In this document: piece by piece, positions 9,001 to 21,000 of the stretch
How the letters are laid out: each line of letters opens with the position of its first letter
How positions within the stretch are numbered: position 1 is the stretch's first letter
Assembly: GCF_003790525.1 (NCBI RefSeq)
Contig: NZ_CP033635.1
From: Escherichia coli
GTDB taxonomy: Bacteria > Pseudomonadota > Gammaproteobacteria > Enterobacterales > Enterobacteriaceae
Length of the DNA stretch: 64,000 nt
Direction: 5' to 3' (one strand)
Position numbers: made by a program

Positions 9001-12000
9001 AATCATAAGGATAATCATAATATTGTTTAATCAAAACCTTGAATATATCGACACAGGAGACCAGGGAGCTTTTGATATCCTCTGATAACTGATTGTTTTT
9101 AACAGTATTAAGTATGCTTTGTTGCGTATATGGCATCAAATTATTGTGCGGAGCTTTTAATGATATCATCGCGATCTCTCTTAAATAAAAATAAACGTCG
9201 CAGATAATAAAGCCCTGATTAAACCAGGCACTATCAGAAATCGCTCATAACTAACGTGTGAAGTATTGTGTACTGGAGGGAGTTAATTTAACAATTTGAA
9301 TTTACGTTATAGGTTTTACTGCTACTTTGATATTATTTCGCTCTCCTTAACTAAAAAGTTAAGTGGAGAGCGAAGTTAATATGTTAAACCACAGGATATT
9401 TATTAATTGTTTCAGTCTGTTAGTGTGCGATTATCGATAACAAAACGATATTTCACATCACCTCGCAGCATTCGCTCATAGGCTTCATTAATTTGATCGG
9501 CCCGAATCATCTCTATATCAGCCACGATGTCATGTTCGGCGCAAAAATCGAGCATCTCCTGTGTTTCTGGAATGCCGCCAATCATAGAGCCGGCTATCGC
9601 ACGGCGTTTCATGATCAGGTTGAAAACTTCCGGTGATTTATGCGGTGTCGCAGGCGCACCAACCAGCGTCATGGTGCCATCACGCTTCAGCAAGGTGGTA
9701 AAATCGTCGAGATTATGTGGCGCAGCTACTGTATTCAAAATGAAATCGAAACTCTTGAGATGAGCCGCCATCTCATCGGCATTGCGTGAGTTAACAACTT
9801 CATCGGCCCCCAGGGCTTTTGCCGCTTCGCGTTTTGCCTCAGAAGTGGTAAATGCCACCACATGCGCCCCCATCGCGTGGGCCAGCTTAATCCCCATATG
9901 TCCCAGACCGCCGATGCCGACCACGCCCACTTTTTTTCCCGGCCCGGCCTGCCAGTGACGTAGCGGCGAATACGTGGTGATCCCTGCACACAACAAAGGT
10001 GCCACCGCCGCCAGCTGCTCTTGCGGGTGACGAATACGCAGAACATATCGCTCATGAACGACGATCTGTTGTGAGTAGCCGCCCAGAGTATGGCCCGGTT
10101 CGTCCGGCGTCGGCGAGTTATAGGTGCCGGTCATGTGATCACAGTAGTTTTCCAGCCCGTCTTCACACTCTTCGCAATGTTTACAACTGTCGACAATGCA
10201 GCCGACACCGACCAGATCGCCCGGCGCATGTTTTTCTACCTGATCACCAACGGCTACCACACGCCCCACAATTTCATGACCCGGCACACAGGGGTAAACC
10301 GTCCCCGCCCACTCGGAACGGACCTGGTGGATATCGGAATGGCAGACGCCACAGTAAGCGATTTCGATTTTGACATCATGCGGTCCCGGTTCACGCCGGG
10401 TGATATCCATCGGTTCCAGCGGTTGTTTAGCGGAATATGCACCAACAGCTTTGATCTTCATTGTGTTTACTCCTGATTAGCTATGTGTATTTGGCGATGC
10501 CTGATATGTCATCGCGGCAAAACGCGTCCATTGAATATAGCCAATATTTAAACCACCCGATCCAGCCCCAACATGCCGCGAGCCTGAATGAAACAGAGCA
10601 GCAACGTTCCCCATAAGGCGAGCGCCTATAAGTGTGATATTTGCTATCCGTAAAAGACAAAAATCGGCAAAACTGATGATATTTTCACGTAGACAAATAG
10701 TTATCTACACAACGTTGGTAATGACTCCAACTTATTGATAGTGTTTTATGTTCAGATAATGCCCGATGACTTTGTCATGCAGCTCCACCGATTTTGAGAA
10801 CGACAGCGACTTCCGTCCCAGCCGTGCCAGGTGCTGCCTCAGATTCAGGTTATGCCGCTCAATTCGCTGCGTATATCGCTTGCTGATTACGTGCAGCTTT
10901 CCCTTCAGGCGGGATTCATACAGCGGCCAGCCATCCGTCATCCATATCACCACGTCAAAGGGTGACAGCAGGCTCATAAGACGCCCCAGCGTCGCCATCG
11001 TGCGTTCACCGAATACGTGCGCAACAACCGTCTTCCGGAGCCTGTCATACGCGTAAAACAGCCAGCGCTGGCGCGATTTAGCCCCGACATAGCCCCACTG
11101 TTCGTCCATTTCCGCACAGACGATGACGTCACTGCCCGGCTGTATGCGCGAGGTTACCGACTGCGGCCTGAGTTTTTTAAGTGACGTAAAATCGTGTTGA
11201 GGCCAACGCCCATAATGCGGGCTGTTGCCCGGCATCCAACGCCATTCATGGCCATATCAATGATTTTCTGGTGCGTACCGGGTTGAGAAGCGGTGTAAGT
11301 GAACTGCAGTTGCCATGTTTTACGGCAGTGAGAGCAGAGATAGCGCTGATGTCCGGCGGTGCTTTTGCCGTTACGCACCACCCCGTCAGTAGCTGAACAG
11401 GAGGGACAGCTGATAGAAACAGAAGCCACTGGAGCACCTCAAAAACACCATCATACACTAAATCAGTAAGTTGGCAGCATCACCCACAACGTCAATAAGG
11501 GCATATTCTTCAAAGATAATGTCCATTTCTGCCGACACACTCATACTCAGGCCGCCCCACTCCCTGGGGCTTAAATCTCTTACTGTTCACCGTTGCAGAT
11601 ATATCAAGTTCGTATCAACCTGCCACACTCCCCCACACCAGTTGCCCTTTATGGAACGTTGCGGTTCTCGGCGAGATACGCGCCACCGCCTCGGCGGAAC
11701 AGGAGGCGTCCACCAGCACAAAGCTGGCGTCATCCTGCGCTTTGGGCCACACGCGCTCGCCTTTTTCGTTGAGCGGCAATACATCGCCAGTGGCTAAAAA
11801 CAGCGAACGGGACAAATTCTGTTCGTTAGGACGAATATAGAGCTGCGCGTAGAGATTGGCTTTTTCCAGCATGTCGCCCAGGCCGTAGGGAGACCAGTGG
11901 TCGATAACGCTGTCGGTGCCGGTCATGACTTTTACGCCTTTGTCGTGCAACTGTTTGAGCGGCATATGCAGCGTGTCAATCGGCACCGTCGAGGCGATAG

Positions 12001-18000: not shown

Positions 18001-21000
18001 ATGTGCGGGCTGGCACCGTGTTCCAGCAATAACTGGACAATCGCCTGCTGTTTAATCCCGCCATCATTAAGCACAATTGCTTCCAGTAGCGGCGTCCAGC
18101 CAACATGGTTGGTCTGGTTAACGTTAATCTCCGTATGCGCCAAAAGCTCTTTTACAATACTTAAATGGCCTTTTTCACAGGCAGGCGTCAGGCCGACACC
18201 GCCAAAACGGGTTACGCAATTAAGATCGGGTTTAGCCGGTAAAATAATCCGTAACAGGGTTAAATCGCCGGTCAGGCAGCTAATTAAAAAAGGATTTGAA
18301 CATATCTGATCTTGCTTATTAATATCCGCTCCGGCGTCAATTAATGCCTGAACGCAAGCATATTGCTGATATAAACTTGCCAGCGTAATTGCCGTTTTCC
18401 CCTGACGATCGCAGGTATTAATATCGACACCCAGCGCAAGGCAGGTTTTTACTTTATCGATATCACCCTGTTGCGCAGCCAATAAATAGTCGGCAGGTAG
18501 ATTTTTTATAGTCATTCACATTCCCCTGGTTTTTGTGGCTGTTTTCGATGAATTGAGAATAGCAACGATAATCTGATAAAAGAACCCGCTTAAATTTAAT
18601 TCGCCGTATTTCGCCTTTTTGTTGAATGATGTTCAACAATCTTTTCGCAGTGTGCGGTAATGCAATATTTGTTTCTTTGACCCGATACCCTTTCACTCAA
18701 TCAGGTTTTATTTCTCTATAGTCTGCACATGTAAGAGTAGCTTTCGTCCATGTCTAACCAGAGGGGAACAAGATGAACGGACTCACGGCAACGGGTGTCA
18801 CCGTCGGTATTTGTGCAGGGCTTTGGCAGTTAGTGTCTTCACATGTCGGGCTCTCTCAGGGATGGGAATTATTAGGAACCATTGGCTTCGTCGCCTTTTG
18901 CAGTTTTTATGCCGCAGGCGGCGGTAAATCGGGGTTTATCAGAAGCCTGGCGGTTAATTATTCCGGGATGGTGTGGGCGTTTTTCGCCGCGCTGGCTGCC
19001 GGTTGGCTGGCCTCGGTGAGTGGATTGTCCACGTTCTGGGCGAGCGTGATTATGACTGTACCCTTCTCGGCGGTGGTGGTCTGGCAAGGACGTTTCGGTT
19101 TATTGTCTTTTATTCCCGGAGGCTTTCTCGGCATGACGCTATTTTTTGCCAGCGGGATGAACTGGACGGTGACGTTACTGGGTTTTCTGGCGGGTAACTG
19201 CGTGGGGATAATTTCAGAATATGGCGGACAAAAATTAAGCGAAGCGACGACTAAACGCGACGGGTATTAAAAGTTATTCAAAAATGATTATCTATCTTTA
19301 ACCGATACCTCTACAGTCATGGCTGGAGAAATTCATATTCGATAATGGCGGGAATGGTTTAATGAACTCAATTTTTACCGAAGAGAATCTGTTGGCATTT
19401 ACTACCGCTGCGCGTTTTGGCAGTTTCAGTAAAGCAGCAGAAGAGTTGGGTTTAACCACTTCCGCCATTAGCTACACCATCAAGCGAATGGAAACAGGGC
19501 TGGATGTGGTGCTGTTCACTCGCAGTACCCGAAGCATTGAGTTAACGGAGTCCGGGCGTTATTTTTTCCGCAAAGCTACCGACCTGCTGAATGATTTTCA
19601 CGCCATCAAACGCAGCATCGATACTATTTCGCAGGGTATAGAAGCACGGGTGCGCATTTGTATTAACCAACTGCTTTATACGCCCAAACACACCGCACGC
19701 TTATTACAGGTACTGAAAAAGCAGTTTCCAACCTGCCAGATTACCGTGACGACCGAAGTGTATAACGGCGTCTGGGATGCGATTATTAATAATCAGGCGA
19801 ATATTGCTATCGGCGCGCCCGACACACTGCTGGACGGCGGCGGCATTGATTACACGGAGATTGGCGCGATTCGCTGGGCTTTTGCTATCGCCCCGGATCA
19901 CCCGTTAGCCTTTGTGCCGGAACCCATCGCCGAAAGCCAGCTGCGTCTCTATCCTAATATCATGGTGGAAGACACCGCGCATACGATTAATAAAAAAGTG
20001 GGCTGGTTGCTGCATGGGCAGGAGTCGATTCTGGTGCCAGATTTCAACACCAAATGTCAGTGCCAGATTTTAGGTGAAGGAATTGGTTTTTTGCCGGATT
20101 ACATGGTCCGTGAGGCGATGGCGCAATCCCTGCTGGTTACCCGACAAATCCATAATCCGCGCCAGGATTCACGCATGTTACTCGCAACTCAGCATTCTGC
20201 TACGGGTCAGGTGACGCAGTGGATTAAAAAGCAATTTGCGCCAAATGGCATATTAACGGGGATCTATCAGGATTTACTGCATCGGGAGAATTAATCGCTG
20301 CCAACCTCCCGATGCGCTGTGAATAGCGGTTTACATCAACCACCTGCTTTCATTACCCATTCAGAGATAAATTTATTACCCGGTACTGGCGGAGAGTACA
20401 AATAGCCCTGCAAAAAGTGAACTCCTTTGCCGATCATTAAATCCGCCTGCTCCTGGGTTTCTACCCCTTCCGCCACGATACTCAGACCAGGCTTACGCGC
20501 CAGTTCGACAATATTGTCCACAATATGACCGGATATTTCGTCCACGCTCGCCATTTGCACAAATGACTTATCGATCTTAATAAAATCGACCGGGAACGCC
20601 TGCAAGTAACGATAGGTCGCATAACCCGTACCAAAGTCATCCAGCGCAAAGGTAATGTTGTGCTGATGAAGGCTGTCAAATATCGCTCTGGCTTCTGGCG
20701 TTACCGGAATAGGGTTACGTTCCGTCAGCTCAAGAACCAGTTTGATTTTATCGTTACCTAATTTCTTAACCAGGTTCAGACACTCTTTTTCAAATCCTGC
20801 GGCCAAAAAACAACCCGCCGAGACGTTGATGCCAATATGGAAATTGTCCGGCAGCAAATGTTTTACCGGCATCAGAATATCCGCAGTCTGTTTCATCAAC
20901 TGGCGAGTCATTATGACGATAAGACCAGATGACTCCGCCAGAGGAATAAACTGATCCGGTGGGATAATTCCCGTTTGTGGATGTTCCCAGCGGACAAGCA

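What the first reader, a model, noticed from the sequence alone, without database searches (positions are those of the whole stretch)
11615..20294. yahDEFG-yahIJ: orphan paralogue of the oxamate/carbamoyl-phosphate module with a Tat-signal amidohydrolase
yahF, yahG, yahE and yahI have the sizes and fold types of FdrA, YlbE (DUF1116), YlbF (DUF2877) and a carbamate kinase, the set that in the allantoin cluster forms an oxamate carbamoyltransferase plus ATP-yielding kinase. Here they are fused into one tight operon (yahE/F and yahF/G overlap) with an ankyrin-repeat protein (yahD), a Tat-signal amidohydrolase (yahJ), a small membrane protein (yahC) and a LysR regulator (yahB). This looks like a self-contained pathway that releases a carbamoyl or ureido compound and makes ATP from carbamoyl phosphate, but the substrate is unknown. 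An ankyrin-repeat protein inside a bacterial catabolic operon is unusual.
Basis: partly seen in the sequence, partly recalled or inferred. Interest (0 to 1): 0.62.

Follow-up and report, generated by a model that had tools for sequence, protein, structure and literature searches.

The report
Second carbamoyl-phosphate ATP module with ankyrin
The E. coli yah genes are an uncharacterised sister of the recently solved oxalurate-to-ATP enzyme set, and in many bacteria this sister always travels with an ankyrin-repeat protein, a nucleobase-type permease and a deaminase, which shows where to look for its unknown substrate.

Summary
On the minus strand, window 11615-18515 carries yahD-E-F-G-I-J. yahC and yahB are transcribed divergently at 18773-20294. 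YahE, YahF, YahG and YahI match the AllH, FdrA/AllF, AllG and carbamate kinase families and are 25-45% identical to E. coli AllH, AllF, AllG and AllK. YahB is 38.5% identical to AllS. The function is inferred, not shown.

New findings:
- The ankyrin protein YahD was found in 71 of 71 assessable species loci. It also recurs in Janthinobacterium, Pasteurella, Bosea and several Bacillales. YahE is absent in 21 of 71.
- All 76 YahJ orthologues keep the Tat motif and cytosine-deaminase-type catalytic residues. Bacillales carry a guanine-deaminase-like enzyme instead.
- Most relatives have an AzgA-like permease between yahG and yahI. E. coli lacks it and has YahC instead; the two never co-occur (0 of 66).
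- The N-terminal 55 residues of YahG correspond to the C-terminal tail of AllF, and natural F-G fusions exist.
- A CRP-like site and a LysR-type palindrome upstream of yahD are conserved across genera.
- An IS-flanked copy lacking yahJ sits on IncF plasmids.

Most likely this is a deaminase-fed pathway that cleaves a ureide with phosphate to give carbamoyl phosphate and then ATP. It is a new variant of a known kind, of moderate interest.

The parts
11615..12997 (-). yahJ: Tat-exported (periplasmic) metal-dependent amidohydrolase of the cytosine deaminase / AtzC subgroup; the proposed feeder deaminase.
   Evidence: - NCBIfam PRK06846, 713 bits.
- Nearest solved structures: 6nbo 4e-44, AtzC 5e-30, cytosine deaminase 2e-20.
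- Aligned with CodA, these residues are conserved: the HxH pair (H121, H123), Q219, H275, E278, H308 and D362. CodA D314 is Ser in YahJ.
- The RR-x-F-[LI] motif is present in all 76 orthologues examined.
- YahJ is listed as a Tat substrate of unknown function; a yahJ deletion had a competitive index of 0.70 in mice (PMC7549933).
13007..13957 (-). yahI: carbamate kinase paralogue (316 aa).
   Evidence: - NCBIfam NF009007 (PRK12352), 648.9 bits against a 266-bit cut-off.
- arcC equivalog TIGR00746, 346.5 bits, just under its 358.25-bit cut-off.
- 38% identical to AllK.
- Present in 67 of 67 assessable loci.
13958..14051 (-). yahG-yahI spacer, the position where most other genera carry a 517-aa AzgA-like permease gene and where K-12 carries about 380 bp of REP sequence (yahH).
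   Evidence: - The permease lies between yahG and yahI in 54 of 67 assessable loci.
- The window lacks the K-12 insert (PMC11551758).
14052..15470 (-). yahG: AllG-family subunit (472 aa) with an N-terminal extension of about 55 residues that AllG lacks.
   Evidence: - Pfam AllG, 6e-89.
- 45% identical to AllG over residues 61-472.
- Residues 8-52 match positions 509-553 of the FdrA model and align with the C-terminal tail of AllF.
- Solved structure 3clq matches at 3e-195.
- 76-79% identical to proteins of Brevibacillus and Janthinobacterium.
15470..17017 (-). yahF: FdrA/AllF-family subunit, related to the alpha subunit of succinyl-CoA synthetase (515 aa).
   Evidence: - NCBIfam PRK06091, 487.6 bits against a 433-bit cut-off.
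- Pfam Ligase_CoA and CoA_binding.
- 38% identical to AllF.
- Natural F-G fusion proteins of about 1000 aa exist.
17007..17870 (-). yahE: AllH-family subunit (287 aa, GTG start). It is the fastest-evolving component and is dispensable in some lineages.
   Evidence: - Pfam AllH, 3e-28.
- 25% identical to AllH.
- Median identity across species is 54%, and the gene is absent from 21 of 71 loci.
- The AlphaFold2 model has a mean pLDDT of 93.5 and no solved structural relative.
- Conserved motifs (invariant or nearly so): GLGxGLTPSxDDYLxG and IGSSSGxD.
17910..18515 (-). yahD: 201-aa ankyrin-repeat protein without a signal peptide. It is a conserved core partner of this type of module.
   Evidence: - Present in 71 of 71 assessable species loci.
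- Also present in Janthinobacterium, Aeromonas and Brevibacillus and in Pasteurella.
- Occurs as a 387-410-aa ankyrin+TPR fusion in Psychrobacillus, Sporosarcina, Cytobacillus and Bosea.
- Detected in all but one of the roughly 17 divergent metagenome clusters with usable flanks.
- Carries family-specific invariant motifs: RFGG, EKG and GW..L.E...L..GG.
18553..18669 (-). Conserved control region upstream of yahD:
- CRP-like site, 18651-18669.
- LysR-type palindrome ATTGTTGAA-N5-TTCAACAA, 18619-18640.
- Conserved box, 18586-18605.
- A -10-like element (GCTATTCT), 18553-18566.
   Evidence: - An alignment of 23 upstream regions shows these blocks conserved across Enterobacterales and Aeromonas. 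The palindrome, the conserved box and the -10-like block extend to Janthinobacterium; Pasteurella keeps the CRP site, the palindrome and the conserved box, with a perfect TGTGA-N6-TCACA CRP site.
- The consensus promoter scan found no sigma-70 match here, as expected for an activator-dependent promoter.
- Binding of any protein was not tested.
18773..19270 (+). yahC: 165-aa DUF1097 membrane protein, divergent from yahD and upstream of yahB. It is the candidate replacement for the missing permease.
   Evidence: - Pfam DUF1097, 1.6e-26.
- Of 66 loci, 15 have YahC only, 51 have the permease only, none has both and none has neither.
- Its distribution is narrow: Escherichia, Kluyvera, Pseudocitrobacter, some Citrobacter, Raoultella and Klebsiella spallanzanii.
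19362..20294 (+). yahB: LysR-type regulator, a paralogue of AllS and PunR.
   Evidence: - NCBIfam AllS, 268 bits, below its 372-bit cut-off.
- NCBIfam PunR, 239 bits, below its 345-bit cut-off.
- 38.5% identical to AllS.
- Present in 71 of 71 loci.

Best explanation
The yah locus encodes a catabolic, ATP-yielding ureide pathway. It is built like the arginine or agmatine deiminase pathways but uses the AllFGH type of carbamoyltransferase.

Proposed steps (all inferred):
1. YahJ is exported folded by the Tat system. In the periplasm it hydrolytically deaminates an amino- or imino-substituted nucleobase-like compound (an O=C-N=C-NH2 or acylguanidine motif). This creates an N-acylurea.
2. The product enters the cell. 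In E. coli this would be through YahC; in most other genera it is through a 517-aa AzgA-like permease.
3. YahF and YahG, with YahE and the ankyrin protein YahD as accessory or scaffold subunits, cleave the N-acylurea with phosphate to give carbamoyl phosphate plus an amide. This is the reaction AllFGH performs on oxalurate.
4. YahI transfers the phosphate to ADP, giving ATP, CO2 and NH3.
5. Expression is driven from a promoter upstream of yahD, controlled by YahB (LysR-type palindrome) and probably cAMP-CRP.

The substrate is most likely oxalurate or a close N-acylureide derived from purine or pyrimidine breakdown.

What is shown: the homologies, the conserved gene order, the signal peptide, the catalytic residues and the conserved DNA motifs. 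What is inferred: all enzymatic steps, the substrate and the role of YahD.
For: Homology:
- Every core protein is homologous to the experimentally characterised AllF, AllG, AllH and AllK set (PMC11326118; PMC9843812).
- YahB is closest to the allantoin regulator AllS and the purine regulator PunR.

Linkage:
- YahF, YahG and YahD always occur together with the kinase YahI (67 of 67) and with YahJ (67 of 67) in Enterobacterales.

A deaminase role is filled by two unrelated folds:
- In Proteobacteria it is YahJ, with CodA-type metal and catalytic residues and the substrate-carbonyl-binding Gln.
- In Brevibacillus, Paenibacillus, Sporosarcina and Psychrobacillus it is a 150-aa enzyme closest to B. 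subtilis guanine deaminase, 1.5e-31.
- Both enzyme types convert amidine or guanidine carbons next to a carbonyl into N-acylurea motifs (established chemistry).

Transporters are of nucleobase or ureide type:
- An AzgA-like permease, named 'xanthine permease' by its sources.
- An NCS1 carrier closest to allantoin permease, 435 bits.
- A CodB-like carrier.
- An NCS2 carrier.

Regulators and neighbours:
- Regulators are PucR-type or AllS-like.
- One divergent cluster places an allantoinase (TIGR03178, 518 bits, above the cut-off) directly upstream of the ankyrin-E-F-G genes.

Subunit contacts:
- F-G fusion proteins, and the shifted F/G boundary, show that F and G act as one enzyme.
- An in-frame yahE-yahF fusion occurs in Zophobihabitans.

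Other:
- The Tat motif is invariant in 76 of 76 YahJ orthologues.
- Oxalurate catabolism with an oxamate transcarbamylase and a third carbamate kinase was described biochemically in Enterococcus faecalis (cited in PMC3282769). From my memory only, structures 3clq (about 70% identical to YahG) and 3hra (ankyrin) are E. faecalis proteins.
Against: - No enzyme activity, inducer or phenotype for yahD-I is reported in the papers searched.
- K-12 mutants lacking allF, allG or allFGH make no oxamate from allantoin although yahEFG is intact. So the yah genes are either silent under those conditions or do not use oxalurate.
- YahE is only 25% identical to AllH and is missing in the Enterobacter clade, whereas AllH is needed for full AllFGH activity.
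- Janthinobacterium, Aeromonas allosaccharophila and the E. coli plasmid copy lack YahJ, so the deaminase is accessory.
- A periplasmic deaminase feeding a cytoplasmic pathway is unusual.
- E. coli has lost the dedicated permease, and many strains carry short yahC alleles, so the E. coli locus may work poorly.
- YahI scores just below the arcC equivalog cut-off.
Confidence: 0.6

Rival explanations
1. The yah enzyme is simply a second oxamate carbamoyltransferase for the same substrate. It would scavenge oxalurate from outside the cell (for example from parabanic acid or oxidised urate), while allFGHK handles oxalurate made inside the cell from allantoin. This is a narrower version of the best explanation, with the substrate fixed as oxalurate.
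For: - Closest characterised relatives are AllFGH and AllK.
- YahB resembles AllS.
- An allantoinase lies next to an ankyrin-type module in locus L105.
- The older literature describes an oxalurate- or parabanate-induced oxamate transcarbamylase with its own carbamate kinase in Enterococcus faecalis. The solved structure 3clq, which I recall as being from E. faecalis, is about 70% identical to YahG.
Against: - Mutants lacking allF, allG or allFGH make no oxamate although yahEFG is present.
- It does not explain the conserved deaminase, since oxalurate needs none.
- It does not explain why the transporters are of purine-base type.
- The E. faecalis gene context could not be retrieved.
Confidence: 0.3
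2. The enzyme opens an intact heterocycle such as xanthine, a uracil-like base or a triazine. Phosphate would attack the ring's N-acylurea carbon to give an N-substituted carbamoyl phosphate. YahI would then convert this to ATP plus an unstable carbamate, which loses CO2.
For: - The deaminases resemble guanine deaminase and cytosine/isoguanine deaminase, whose products (xanthine, uracil) contain cyclic N-acylureas.
- The transporters are of purine-base type.
- YahI belongs to a separate kinase subfamily that falls below the arcC equivalog cut-off.
Against: - There is no precedent for this chemistry.
- It is energetically demanding for an aromatic ring.
- The one characterised relative uses a linear substrate with a terminal carbamoyl group.
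- It rests entirely on inference.
Confidence: 0.07
3. YahF is an acyl-CoA synthetase, as RefSeq names it. The cluster would then activate or cleave a CoA thioester, and the carbamate kinase would be functionally unrelated.
For: - YahF matches the CoA_binding and Ligase_CoA domains and weakly resembles the alpha subunit of succinyl-CoA synthetase.
- RefSeq names it 'acyl-CoA synthetase FdrA'.
Against: - The only characterised family member, AllF, is part of a carbamoyltransferase that needs no CoA (PMC11326118).
- No beta-subunit or ATP-grasp partner is present.
- The kinase is linked in 67 of 67 loci.
Confidence: 0.04
4. In E. coli the locus is a cryptic or decaying remnant that no longer supports a complete pathway.
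For: - The permease present in most genera is missing. Its place holds a 94-nt spacer in the window and REP repeats in K-12.
- Many yahC alleles are short.
- Insertion sequences lie nearby: IS1 at 10717-11485 in the window, and IS1 in pdeL in strain CM2.
- No phenotype is known apart from a weak infection defect.
Against: - All eight reading frames are intact in the window and in K-12, with only 3-12 amino-acid differences between them.
- 4972 of 5426 complete E. coli genomes retain at least 80% of the region.
- YahG is 99% identical across Escherichia species.
- The regulatory motifs are conserved.
Confidence: 0.1

Closest known systems
AllFGH oxamic transcarbamylase plus AllK carbamate kinase of the E. 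coli allantoin regulon (allFGHK, regulated by AllS)
   Same: - The same four protein families, with a regulator of the same subfamily.
- Translationally coupled genes.
- Presumably the same chemistry: cleavage of an N-acylurea with phosphate to carbamoyl phosphate, followed by ATP formation.
   Different: - Gene order is E-F-G-I instead of F-G-H-K.
- An ankyrin protein is always present.
- A roughly 50-residue segment sits on the N-terminus of YahG instead of the C-terminus of AllF.
- YahE is very divergent from AllH and sometimes absent.
- The module is linked to a deaminase and to nucleobase-type permeases rather than to allECD.
- It is controlled by YahB and a CRP-like site.
- It spreads horizontally, including on IncF plasmids.
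- It does not replace allFGH in vivo.
[quoted passage not shown]
   Same: The same logic: a hydrolytic deimination creates a ureido group, phosphate cleaves it to carbamoyl phosphate, a carbamate kinase makes ATP, and a dedicated transporter and regulator sit in the same cluster.
   Different: - The transcarbamylase is of the unrelated, multi-subunit AllFGH type, not the ATCase/OTCase fold.
- The deaminase is an amidohydrolase or a cytidine-deaminase-fold enzyme, not a guanidino-group-modifying enzyme.
- In Proteobacteria the deaminase is periplasmic.
- The substrate is probably an acyl-ureide rather than an alkyl-ureide.
Cytosine/isoguanine deaminase CodA and the s-triazine hydrolase AtzC (amidohydrolase superfamily)
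   Same: YahJ shares the fold, the HxH/H/D metal ligands, the catalytic Glu and His, and the Gln that binds the substrate carbonyl.
   Different: - YahJ has a Tat signal peptide and an extra N-terminal segment of about 45 residues.
- It scores far below the cytosine deaminase cut-offs.
- CodA Asp314 is Ser in YahJ.
- Its substrate is unknown.

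Membership tests
AllF / FdrA family (NCBIfam PRK06091) | Whole-protein score above the curated cut-off, with succinyl-CoA-synthetase-alpha-like CoA_binding and Ligase_CoA domains. | tested here: met
   - 487.6 bits against a 433-bit cut-off.
- Pfam Ligase_CoA 5.7e-31 and CoA_binding 5e-12.
- 38% identical to AllF.
AllG family (Pfam PF06545, formerly DUF1116) | A match to the AllG domain. | tested here: met
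   - 6e-89 over the full 215 model positions.
- 45% identical to AllG.
AllH family (Pfam PF11392, formerly DUF2877) | A match to the AllH domain. | tested here: met
   - 3.1e-28 over 108 of 109 model positions.
- Only 25% identical to AllH (1e-10).
Oxamate carbamoyltransferase (the enzyme activity, EC 2.1.3.5) | Catalyses oxalurate + phosphate <-> carbamoyl phosphate + oxamate, and requires the three subunits. | not testable with these tools
   - Only homology is available.
- Indirect evidence against identical function in vivo: mutants lacking allF, allG or allFGH make no oxamate although yahEFG is present.
- yahE is absent from the Enterobacter clade.
Carbamate kinase | A score above the cut-off of a carbamate kinase model. 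| tested here: met
   - Subfamily NF009007: 648.9 bits against a 266-bit cut-off.
- The arcC equivalog TIGR00746 is NOT reached: 346.5 bits against 358.25.
- So YahI belongs to the family, but the specific equivalog is not confirmed. Kinase activity was not tested.
Tat (twin-arginine) exported proteins | An N-terminal S/T-R-R-x-F-L-K-type motif, followed by a hydrophobic stretch and an A-x-A cleavage site. | tested here: met
   - SRREFLS, then a hydrophobic stretch, then AHA|G.
- RR-x-F-[LI] is present in 76 of 76 orthologues.
- Export itself was not tested here. YahJ is listed as a predicted Tat substrate in PMC7549933.
Cytosine deaminase (NCBIfam equivalog NF005759) / AtzC | An equivalog-level score, plus the catalytic HxH, His, Glu, His and Asp residues. 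| tested here: not met
   - 73.5 bits against a 403-bit cut-off.
- The catalytic residues are conserved.
- YahJ therefore belongs to the same subgroup but is not a cytosine deaminase orthologue. No AtzC model was available; the sequence match to AtzC structures is 5e-30.
AllS (allantoin regulon activator) | An equivalog-level score. | tested here: not met
   - 268.4 bits against a 372-bit cut-off.
- 38.5% identity.
- YahB is a paralogue of AllS, not AllS itself.
Ankyrin-repeat proteins | Tandem 33-residue ankyrin repeats. | tested here: met
   - Strong matches to ankyrin and designed ankyrin-repeat protein structures (2e-72) and to two bacterial ankyrin proteins of about 200 aa, 5d66 and 3hra.
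- Pfam Ank families are recorded on the orthologues.
Anti-phage defence systems (PADLOC) | A match of the components to defence-system models. | tested here: not met
   Only generic ankyrin similarity for YahD; no match for the other seven proteins.

The most novel reading that the evidence does not exclude
The ankyrin-linked yah module may be a distinct multi-subunit phosphorolytic enzyme in which a bacterial ankyrin-repeat protein is an obligatory subunit, able to stand in for AllH. It would act on a still unrecognised nucleobase-derived N-acylureide, possibly by opening a ring. This would define a new ATP-yielding route of purine or pyrimidine catabolism that begins with a deamination step in the periplasm and spreads between phyla and on plasmids.
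Probability: 0.2. Interest if true: 0.8.

Novelty: new variant of a known kind. Interest (0 to 1): 0.55.

Why it matters
- The cluster holds seven of the still uncharacterised genes of E. coli K-12, including the last of its three carbamate kinase paralogues without a pathway.
- The AllFGH class of carbamoyltransferase was identified only in 2024, and the paper that did so does not mention the yah genes.
- This work shows a sister clade with its own conserved partners: an ankyrin protein, a deaminase and nucleobase-type permeases. That narrows the substrate search to deaminated nucleobase-like N-acylureides and gives concrete assays.
- It offers a rare case of a bacterial ankyrin protein tied to a metabolic enzyme.
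- It may explain the weak infection defect of yahJ mutants and the presence of the module on plasmids and genomic islands of avian pathogenic E. coli.

Tried and rejected
Literature:
- Searches for yah gene names found no functional study.
- One search was wasted because 'b0320' and 'b0321' also occur as reference tags.
- The review of enterobacterial purine catabolism is not held.
- The cap on papers stopped one further look-up.

The permease:
- It has no Pfam, NCBIfam or solved-structure match. Its family assignment rests on names given by the sources and on one precomputed Pfam hit.

YahE:
- It has no sequence match to any solved structure.

Enterococcus faecalis gene context:
- A degenerate DNA pattern found nothing.
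- The protein-based metagenome scan returned only relatives of at most 75% identity.
- The link between the E. faecalis oxalurate pathway and the ankyrin-type module therefore rests on my memory of where 3clq and 3hra come from.

Other:
- The consensus promoter scan found nothing upstream of yahD; the conserved motifs came from alignment instead.
- A defence-system reading was tested and rejected.
- The YahC homologue search gave too narrow a set for structure prediction.
- I did not predict a fused YahD-YahG chain, because the tool returns no inter-domain error estimates.

Full report
**1. What is there**

The window is E. coli. Its closest complete genome is strain CM2, which is 100% identical across this region apart from insertion-sequence positions. 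The finding's coordinates run exactly from the stop codon of yahJ to the stop codon of yahB.

On the minus strand lie yahD (17910-18515), yahE (17007-17870), yahF (15470-17017), yahG (14052-15470), yahI (13007-13957) and yahJ (11615-12997). On the plus strand lie yahC (18773-19270) and yahB (19362-20294).

yahE and yahF overlap by 11 nt. yahF and yahG overlap by 1 nt. yahI and yahJ are 9 nt apart, and yahG and yahI are 94 nt apart. All eight proteins have the same lengths as in K-12 and differ from it at only 3-12 residues.

**2. Family tests**

- YahE matches Pfam AllH (3e-28), YahF matches Ligase_CoA plus CoA_binding, YahG matches AllG (6e-89), and YahC matches DUF1097.
- With NCBIfam, YahF passes the FdrA cut-off (487.6 against 433 bits).
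- YahI passes a carbamate kinase subfamily model (649 against 266 bits) but falls just short of the arcC equivalog (346.5 against 358.25 bits).
- YahJ passes amidohydrolase PRK06846 (713 bits).
- The best hits for YahB are AllS and PunR, both below their cut-offs.

Pairwise identities to the K-12 allantoin-cluster proteins are 38% for YahF/AllF, 45% for YahG/AllG, 25% for YahE/AllH, 38% for YahI/AllK and 38.5% for YahB/AllS. AllFGH was shown in 2024 to be oxamic transcarbamylase, and AllK in 2022 to be the catabolic carbamate kinase (PMC11326118, PMC9843812). Neither paper mentions the yah genes. A 2024 survey still lists the cluster as uncharacterised.

**3. A distinct, widely spread clade**

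YahG is 86-99% identical across Enterobacterales and Aeromonas. It is 79% identical in Janthinobacterium and 76-77% in Brevibacillus, Paenibacillus, Psychrobacillus and Sporosarcina. In a library clustered at 50% identity, this whole clade collapses into one full-length representative (the other listed hits above 50% identity are partial sequences), and all other full-length AllG relatives are at most 49% identical.

I examined 80 species-level genome loci.
- YahB, YahD and YahF are present in 71 of 71 loci with enough upstream sequence.
- YahI and YahJ are present in 67 of 67 loci with enough downstream sequence.
- YahE is present in only 50 of 71. It is missing between yahD and yahF in Enterobacter, Leclercia, Lelliottia and Silvania, and in Aeromonas cavernicola.
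- Median identity to the window proteins is 90% for YahG and YahB, 86% for YahI, 83% for YahJ, 81% for YahF, 70% for YahD and 54% for YahE.

**4. The ankyrin protein is a core component**

A 201-aa ankyrin gene sits directly upstream of the AllH-like gene in Janthinobacterium, Brevibacillus, Aeromonas and Pasteurella.

In Psychrobacillus, Sporosarcina, Cytobacillus and Bosea, the neighbouring proteins of 387-410 aa that carry no Pfam record are ankyrin plus TPR fusions, 35-36% identical to YahD for Bosea and Cytobacillus. Paenibacillus fonticola keeps only a 95-aa remnant.

Among the roughly 17 divergent metagenome clusters with usable flanks, all but one have an ankyrin gene.

YahD orthologues share invariant motifs that are not part of the general ankyrin consensus: RFGG, EKG and GW..L.E...L..GG. 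This suggests a conserved binding surface. The E. coli allFGHK operon has no ankyrin gene.

**5. Subunit architecture**

Residues 8-52 of YahG match the C-terminal end of the FdrA model. They align with the last roughly 48 residues of AllF, which YahF lacks. So the boundary between the F and G genes lies at a different point in the two systems.

The representative library contains many proteins of about 1000 aa that are F-G fusions, with this same segment at the junction. In Zophobihabitans, yahE and yahF form one in-frame reading frame of 799 aa. These fusions support a single enzyme complex.

An AlphaFold2 model of YahE is confident (mean pLDDT 93.5). It has an N-terminal beta domain and a C-terminal helical domain, but no solved structural relative.

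**6. The feeder enzyme**

All 76 YahJ orthologues examined keep an RR-x-F-[LI] twin-arginine motif, typically followed by a hydrophobic stretch and an A-x-A-type cleavage site. The Pasteurella orthologue also has the motif. Bosea instead has a 397-aa relative without a signal peptide.

The nearest solved structures to YahJ are an annotated N-isopropylammelide hydrolase (4e-44), AtzC and cytosine deaminase. Aligned with CodA, YahJ keeps the HxH pair, His, Glu, His and Asp, and also Gln156, which binds the substrate carbonyl. CodA Asp314 is Ser in YahJ.

In four Bacillales genera, the clusters carry instead a 150-aa enzyme closest to B. subtilis guanine deaminase (1.5e-31). So two unrelated deaminase folds fill the same slot. 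Both folds convert an amidine or guanidine carbon next to a carbonyl into an N-acylurea motif, which is the functional group that AllFGH cleaves in oxalurate. That last link is an inference from established chemistry.

YahJ is not universal. Janthinobacterium, Aeromonas allosaccharophila and a mobile E. coli copy lack it.

**7. Transport and regulation**

Between yahG and yahI, 54 of 67 loci carry a 517-aa membrane protein. It has no Pfam, NCBIfam or solved-structure match. Its sources name it xanthine permease or an AGZA-family purine permease.

E. coli and its closest genera lack this permease and instead have yahC between yahB and yahD. Of 66 assessable loci, 15 have YahC only, 51 have the permease only, and none has both or neither. 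Because the YahC group is phylogenetically compact, a single replacement event may explain this pattern.

Other clusters use different carriers:
- an NCS1 carrier closest to allantoin permease;
- a CodB-like carrier;
- an NCS2 permease.

Regulators are LysR-type (AllS-like) in most Proteobacteria and PucR-type in Bacillales and Bosea. One divergent cluster has an allantoinase directly upstream of the ankyrin-E-F-G genes.

Upstream of yahD, an alignment of 23 loci shows four conserved blocks: a CRP-like site (perfect in Pasteurella), the palindrome ATTGTTGAA-N5-TTCAACAA, a further box and a -10-like element. In the window these lie at 18553-18669.

**8. Mobility**

141 complete E. coli genomes carry a second module in the order LysR, ankyrin, DUF2877, FdrA, DUF1116, permease, kinase, without yahJ. 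It is flanked by insertion sequences and lies on IncF plasmids or in chromosomal islands. Its proteins are 52-93% identical to the window's. Horizontal transfer probably explains the high identity between phyla.

**9. Interpretation**

The best-supported reading is a pathway organised like the arginine deiminase pathway: deaminase, then uptake, then phosphate-dependent cleavage of an N-acylureide by YahF-YahG with YahE and YahD, then ATP formation by YahI. The substrate is unknown.

Arguments for oxalurate:
- the homology to AllFGH;
- the allantoinase neighbour in one cluster;
- old biochemistry of an oxalurate pathway with its own carbamate kinase in Enterococcus faecalis.

From memory only, the structures 3clq and 3hra come from E. 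faecalis. 3clq is about 70% identical to YahG, and 3hra is an ankyrin protein. I could not retrieve that genomic context.

Arguments against oxalurate:
- K-12 mutants lacking allF, allG or allFGH make no oxamate although yahEFG is intact;
- oxalurate needs no deaminase;
- the carriers are of purine-base type.

One observation in that paper is suggestive. Plasmid-borne allGH alone restored 16% of oxamate production in the allFGH triple mutant. This could reflect weak cross-complementation by YahF, but that is speculation.

**10. Verdict**

The paralogy itself is already visible in public annotation.

What is new is the definition of an ankyrin-linked sister clade with its own partners, a shifted subunit boundary, a conserved control region and plasmid-borne copies.

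I rate it a new variant of a known kind, of moderate interest. It turns the function of a long-standing group of uncharacterised E. coli genes into a set of direct assays.

Noticed in passing
window 10717-11485: A 769-bp IS1 element lies between yahK and yahJ, about 130 bp downstream of the yahJ stop codon, with an 8-bp target duplication. Strain CM2 is otherwise 100% identical here but carries its IS1 inside pdeL, which is intact in the window (20336-21430).
   Followed up: yes
window 13958-14051, compared with L002 9748-10128: K-12 has about 380 extra bases (the REP-filled 'yahH') between yahG and yahI. The window has only a 94-nt spacer. This is exactly where other genera carry the permease gene.
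   Followed up: partly
L097 3199-11632 and L098 3199-11632: A second, IS-flanked module of this type (LysR, ankyrin, DUF2877, FdrA, DUF1116, permease, carbamate kinase; no yahJ) lies on IncF plasmids and in chromosomal islands in 141 complete E. coli genomes, several of the listed ones from chickens.
   Followed up: partly
L065, around 7569-10000 (Zophobihabitans entericus): yahE and yahF appear fused in frame into one 799-aa reading frame. This may be a real fusion or a sequencing error. L174 also has an 867-aa protein with a YahF domain and an unassigned 350-aa N-terminal part.
   Followed up: partly
Representative proteins P0372, P0373, P0376, P0378, P0379, P0381, P0382, P0385, P0425, P0447: Many AllG-family representatives are F-G fusion proteins of about 1000 aa. 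The split into two genes has therefore occurred at different points in different lineages.
   Followed up: yes
window 18773-19270 (yahC): Many E. coli-derived protein clusters for YahC are about 140 aa long and match only half of the 165-aa protein at 96-100% identity. This suggests frequent frameshifted or truncated alleles.
   Followed up: no
L050 7742-8454 (Enterobacter cloacae) and related loci: The Enterobacter, Leclercia, Lelliottia and Silvania clade has no yahE between yahD and yahF, although AllH is reported to be needed for full AllFGH activity. I did not check whether another AllH-family gene elsewhere in those genomes supplies the function.
   Followed up: partly
window 15470-18515 (yahD-yahE-yahF): A published expression-library screen in strain UTI89 found that the cloned yahD-yahE-yahF region causes filamentation (17-fold enrichment; PMC6206680). 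FdrA was originally named as a multicopy suppressor of ftsH mutants (from memory). No link to the metabolic function is known.
   Followed up: no
L105 1740-6041 and L110 2169-4931: Two divergent PucR-controlled clusters place an unassigned protein of about 437 aa and an M24-family (creatinase/ectoine-hydrolase-like) protein upstream of the ankyrin-E-F-G genes. L105 also has an allantoinase there. These may be further pathway steps.
   Followed up: partly
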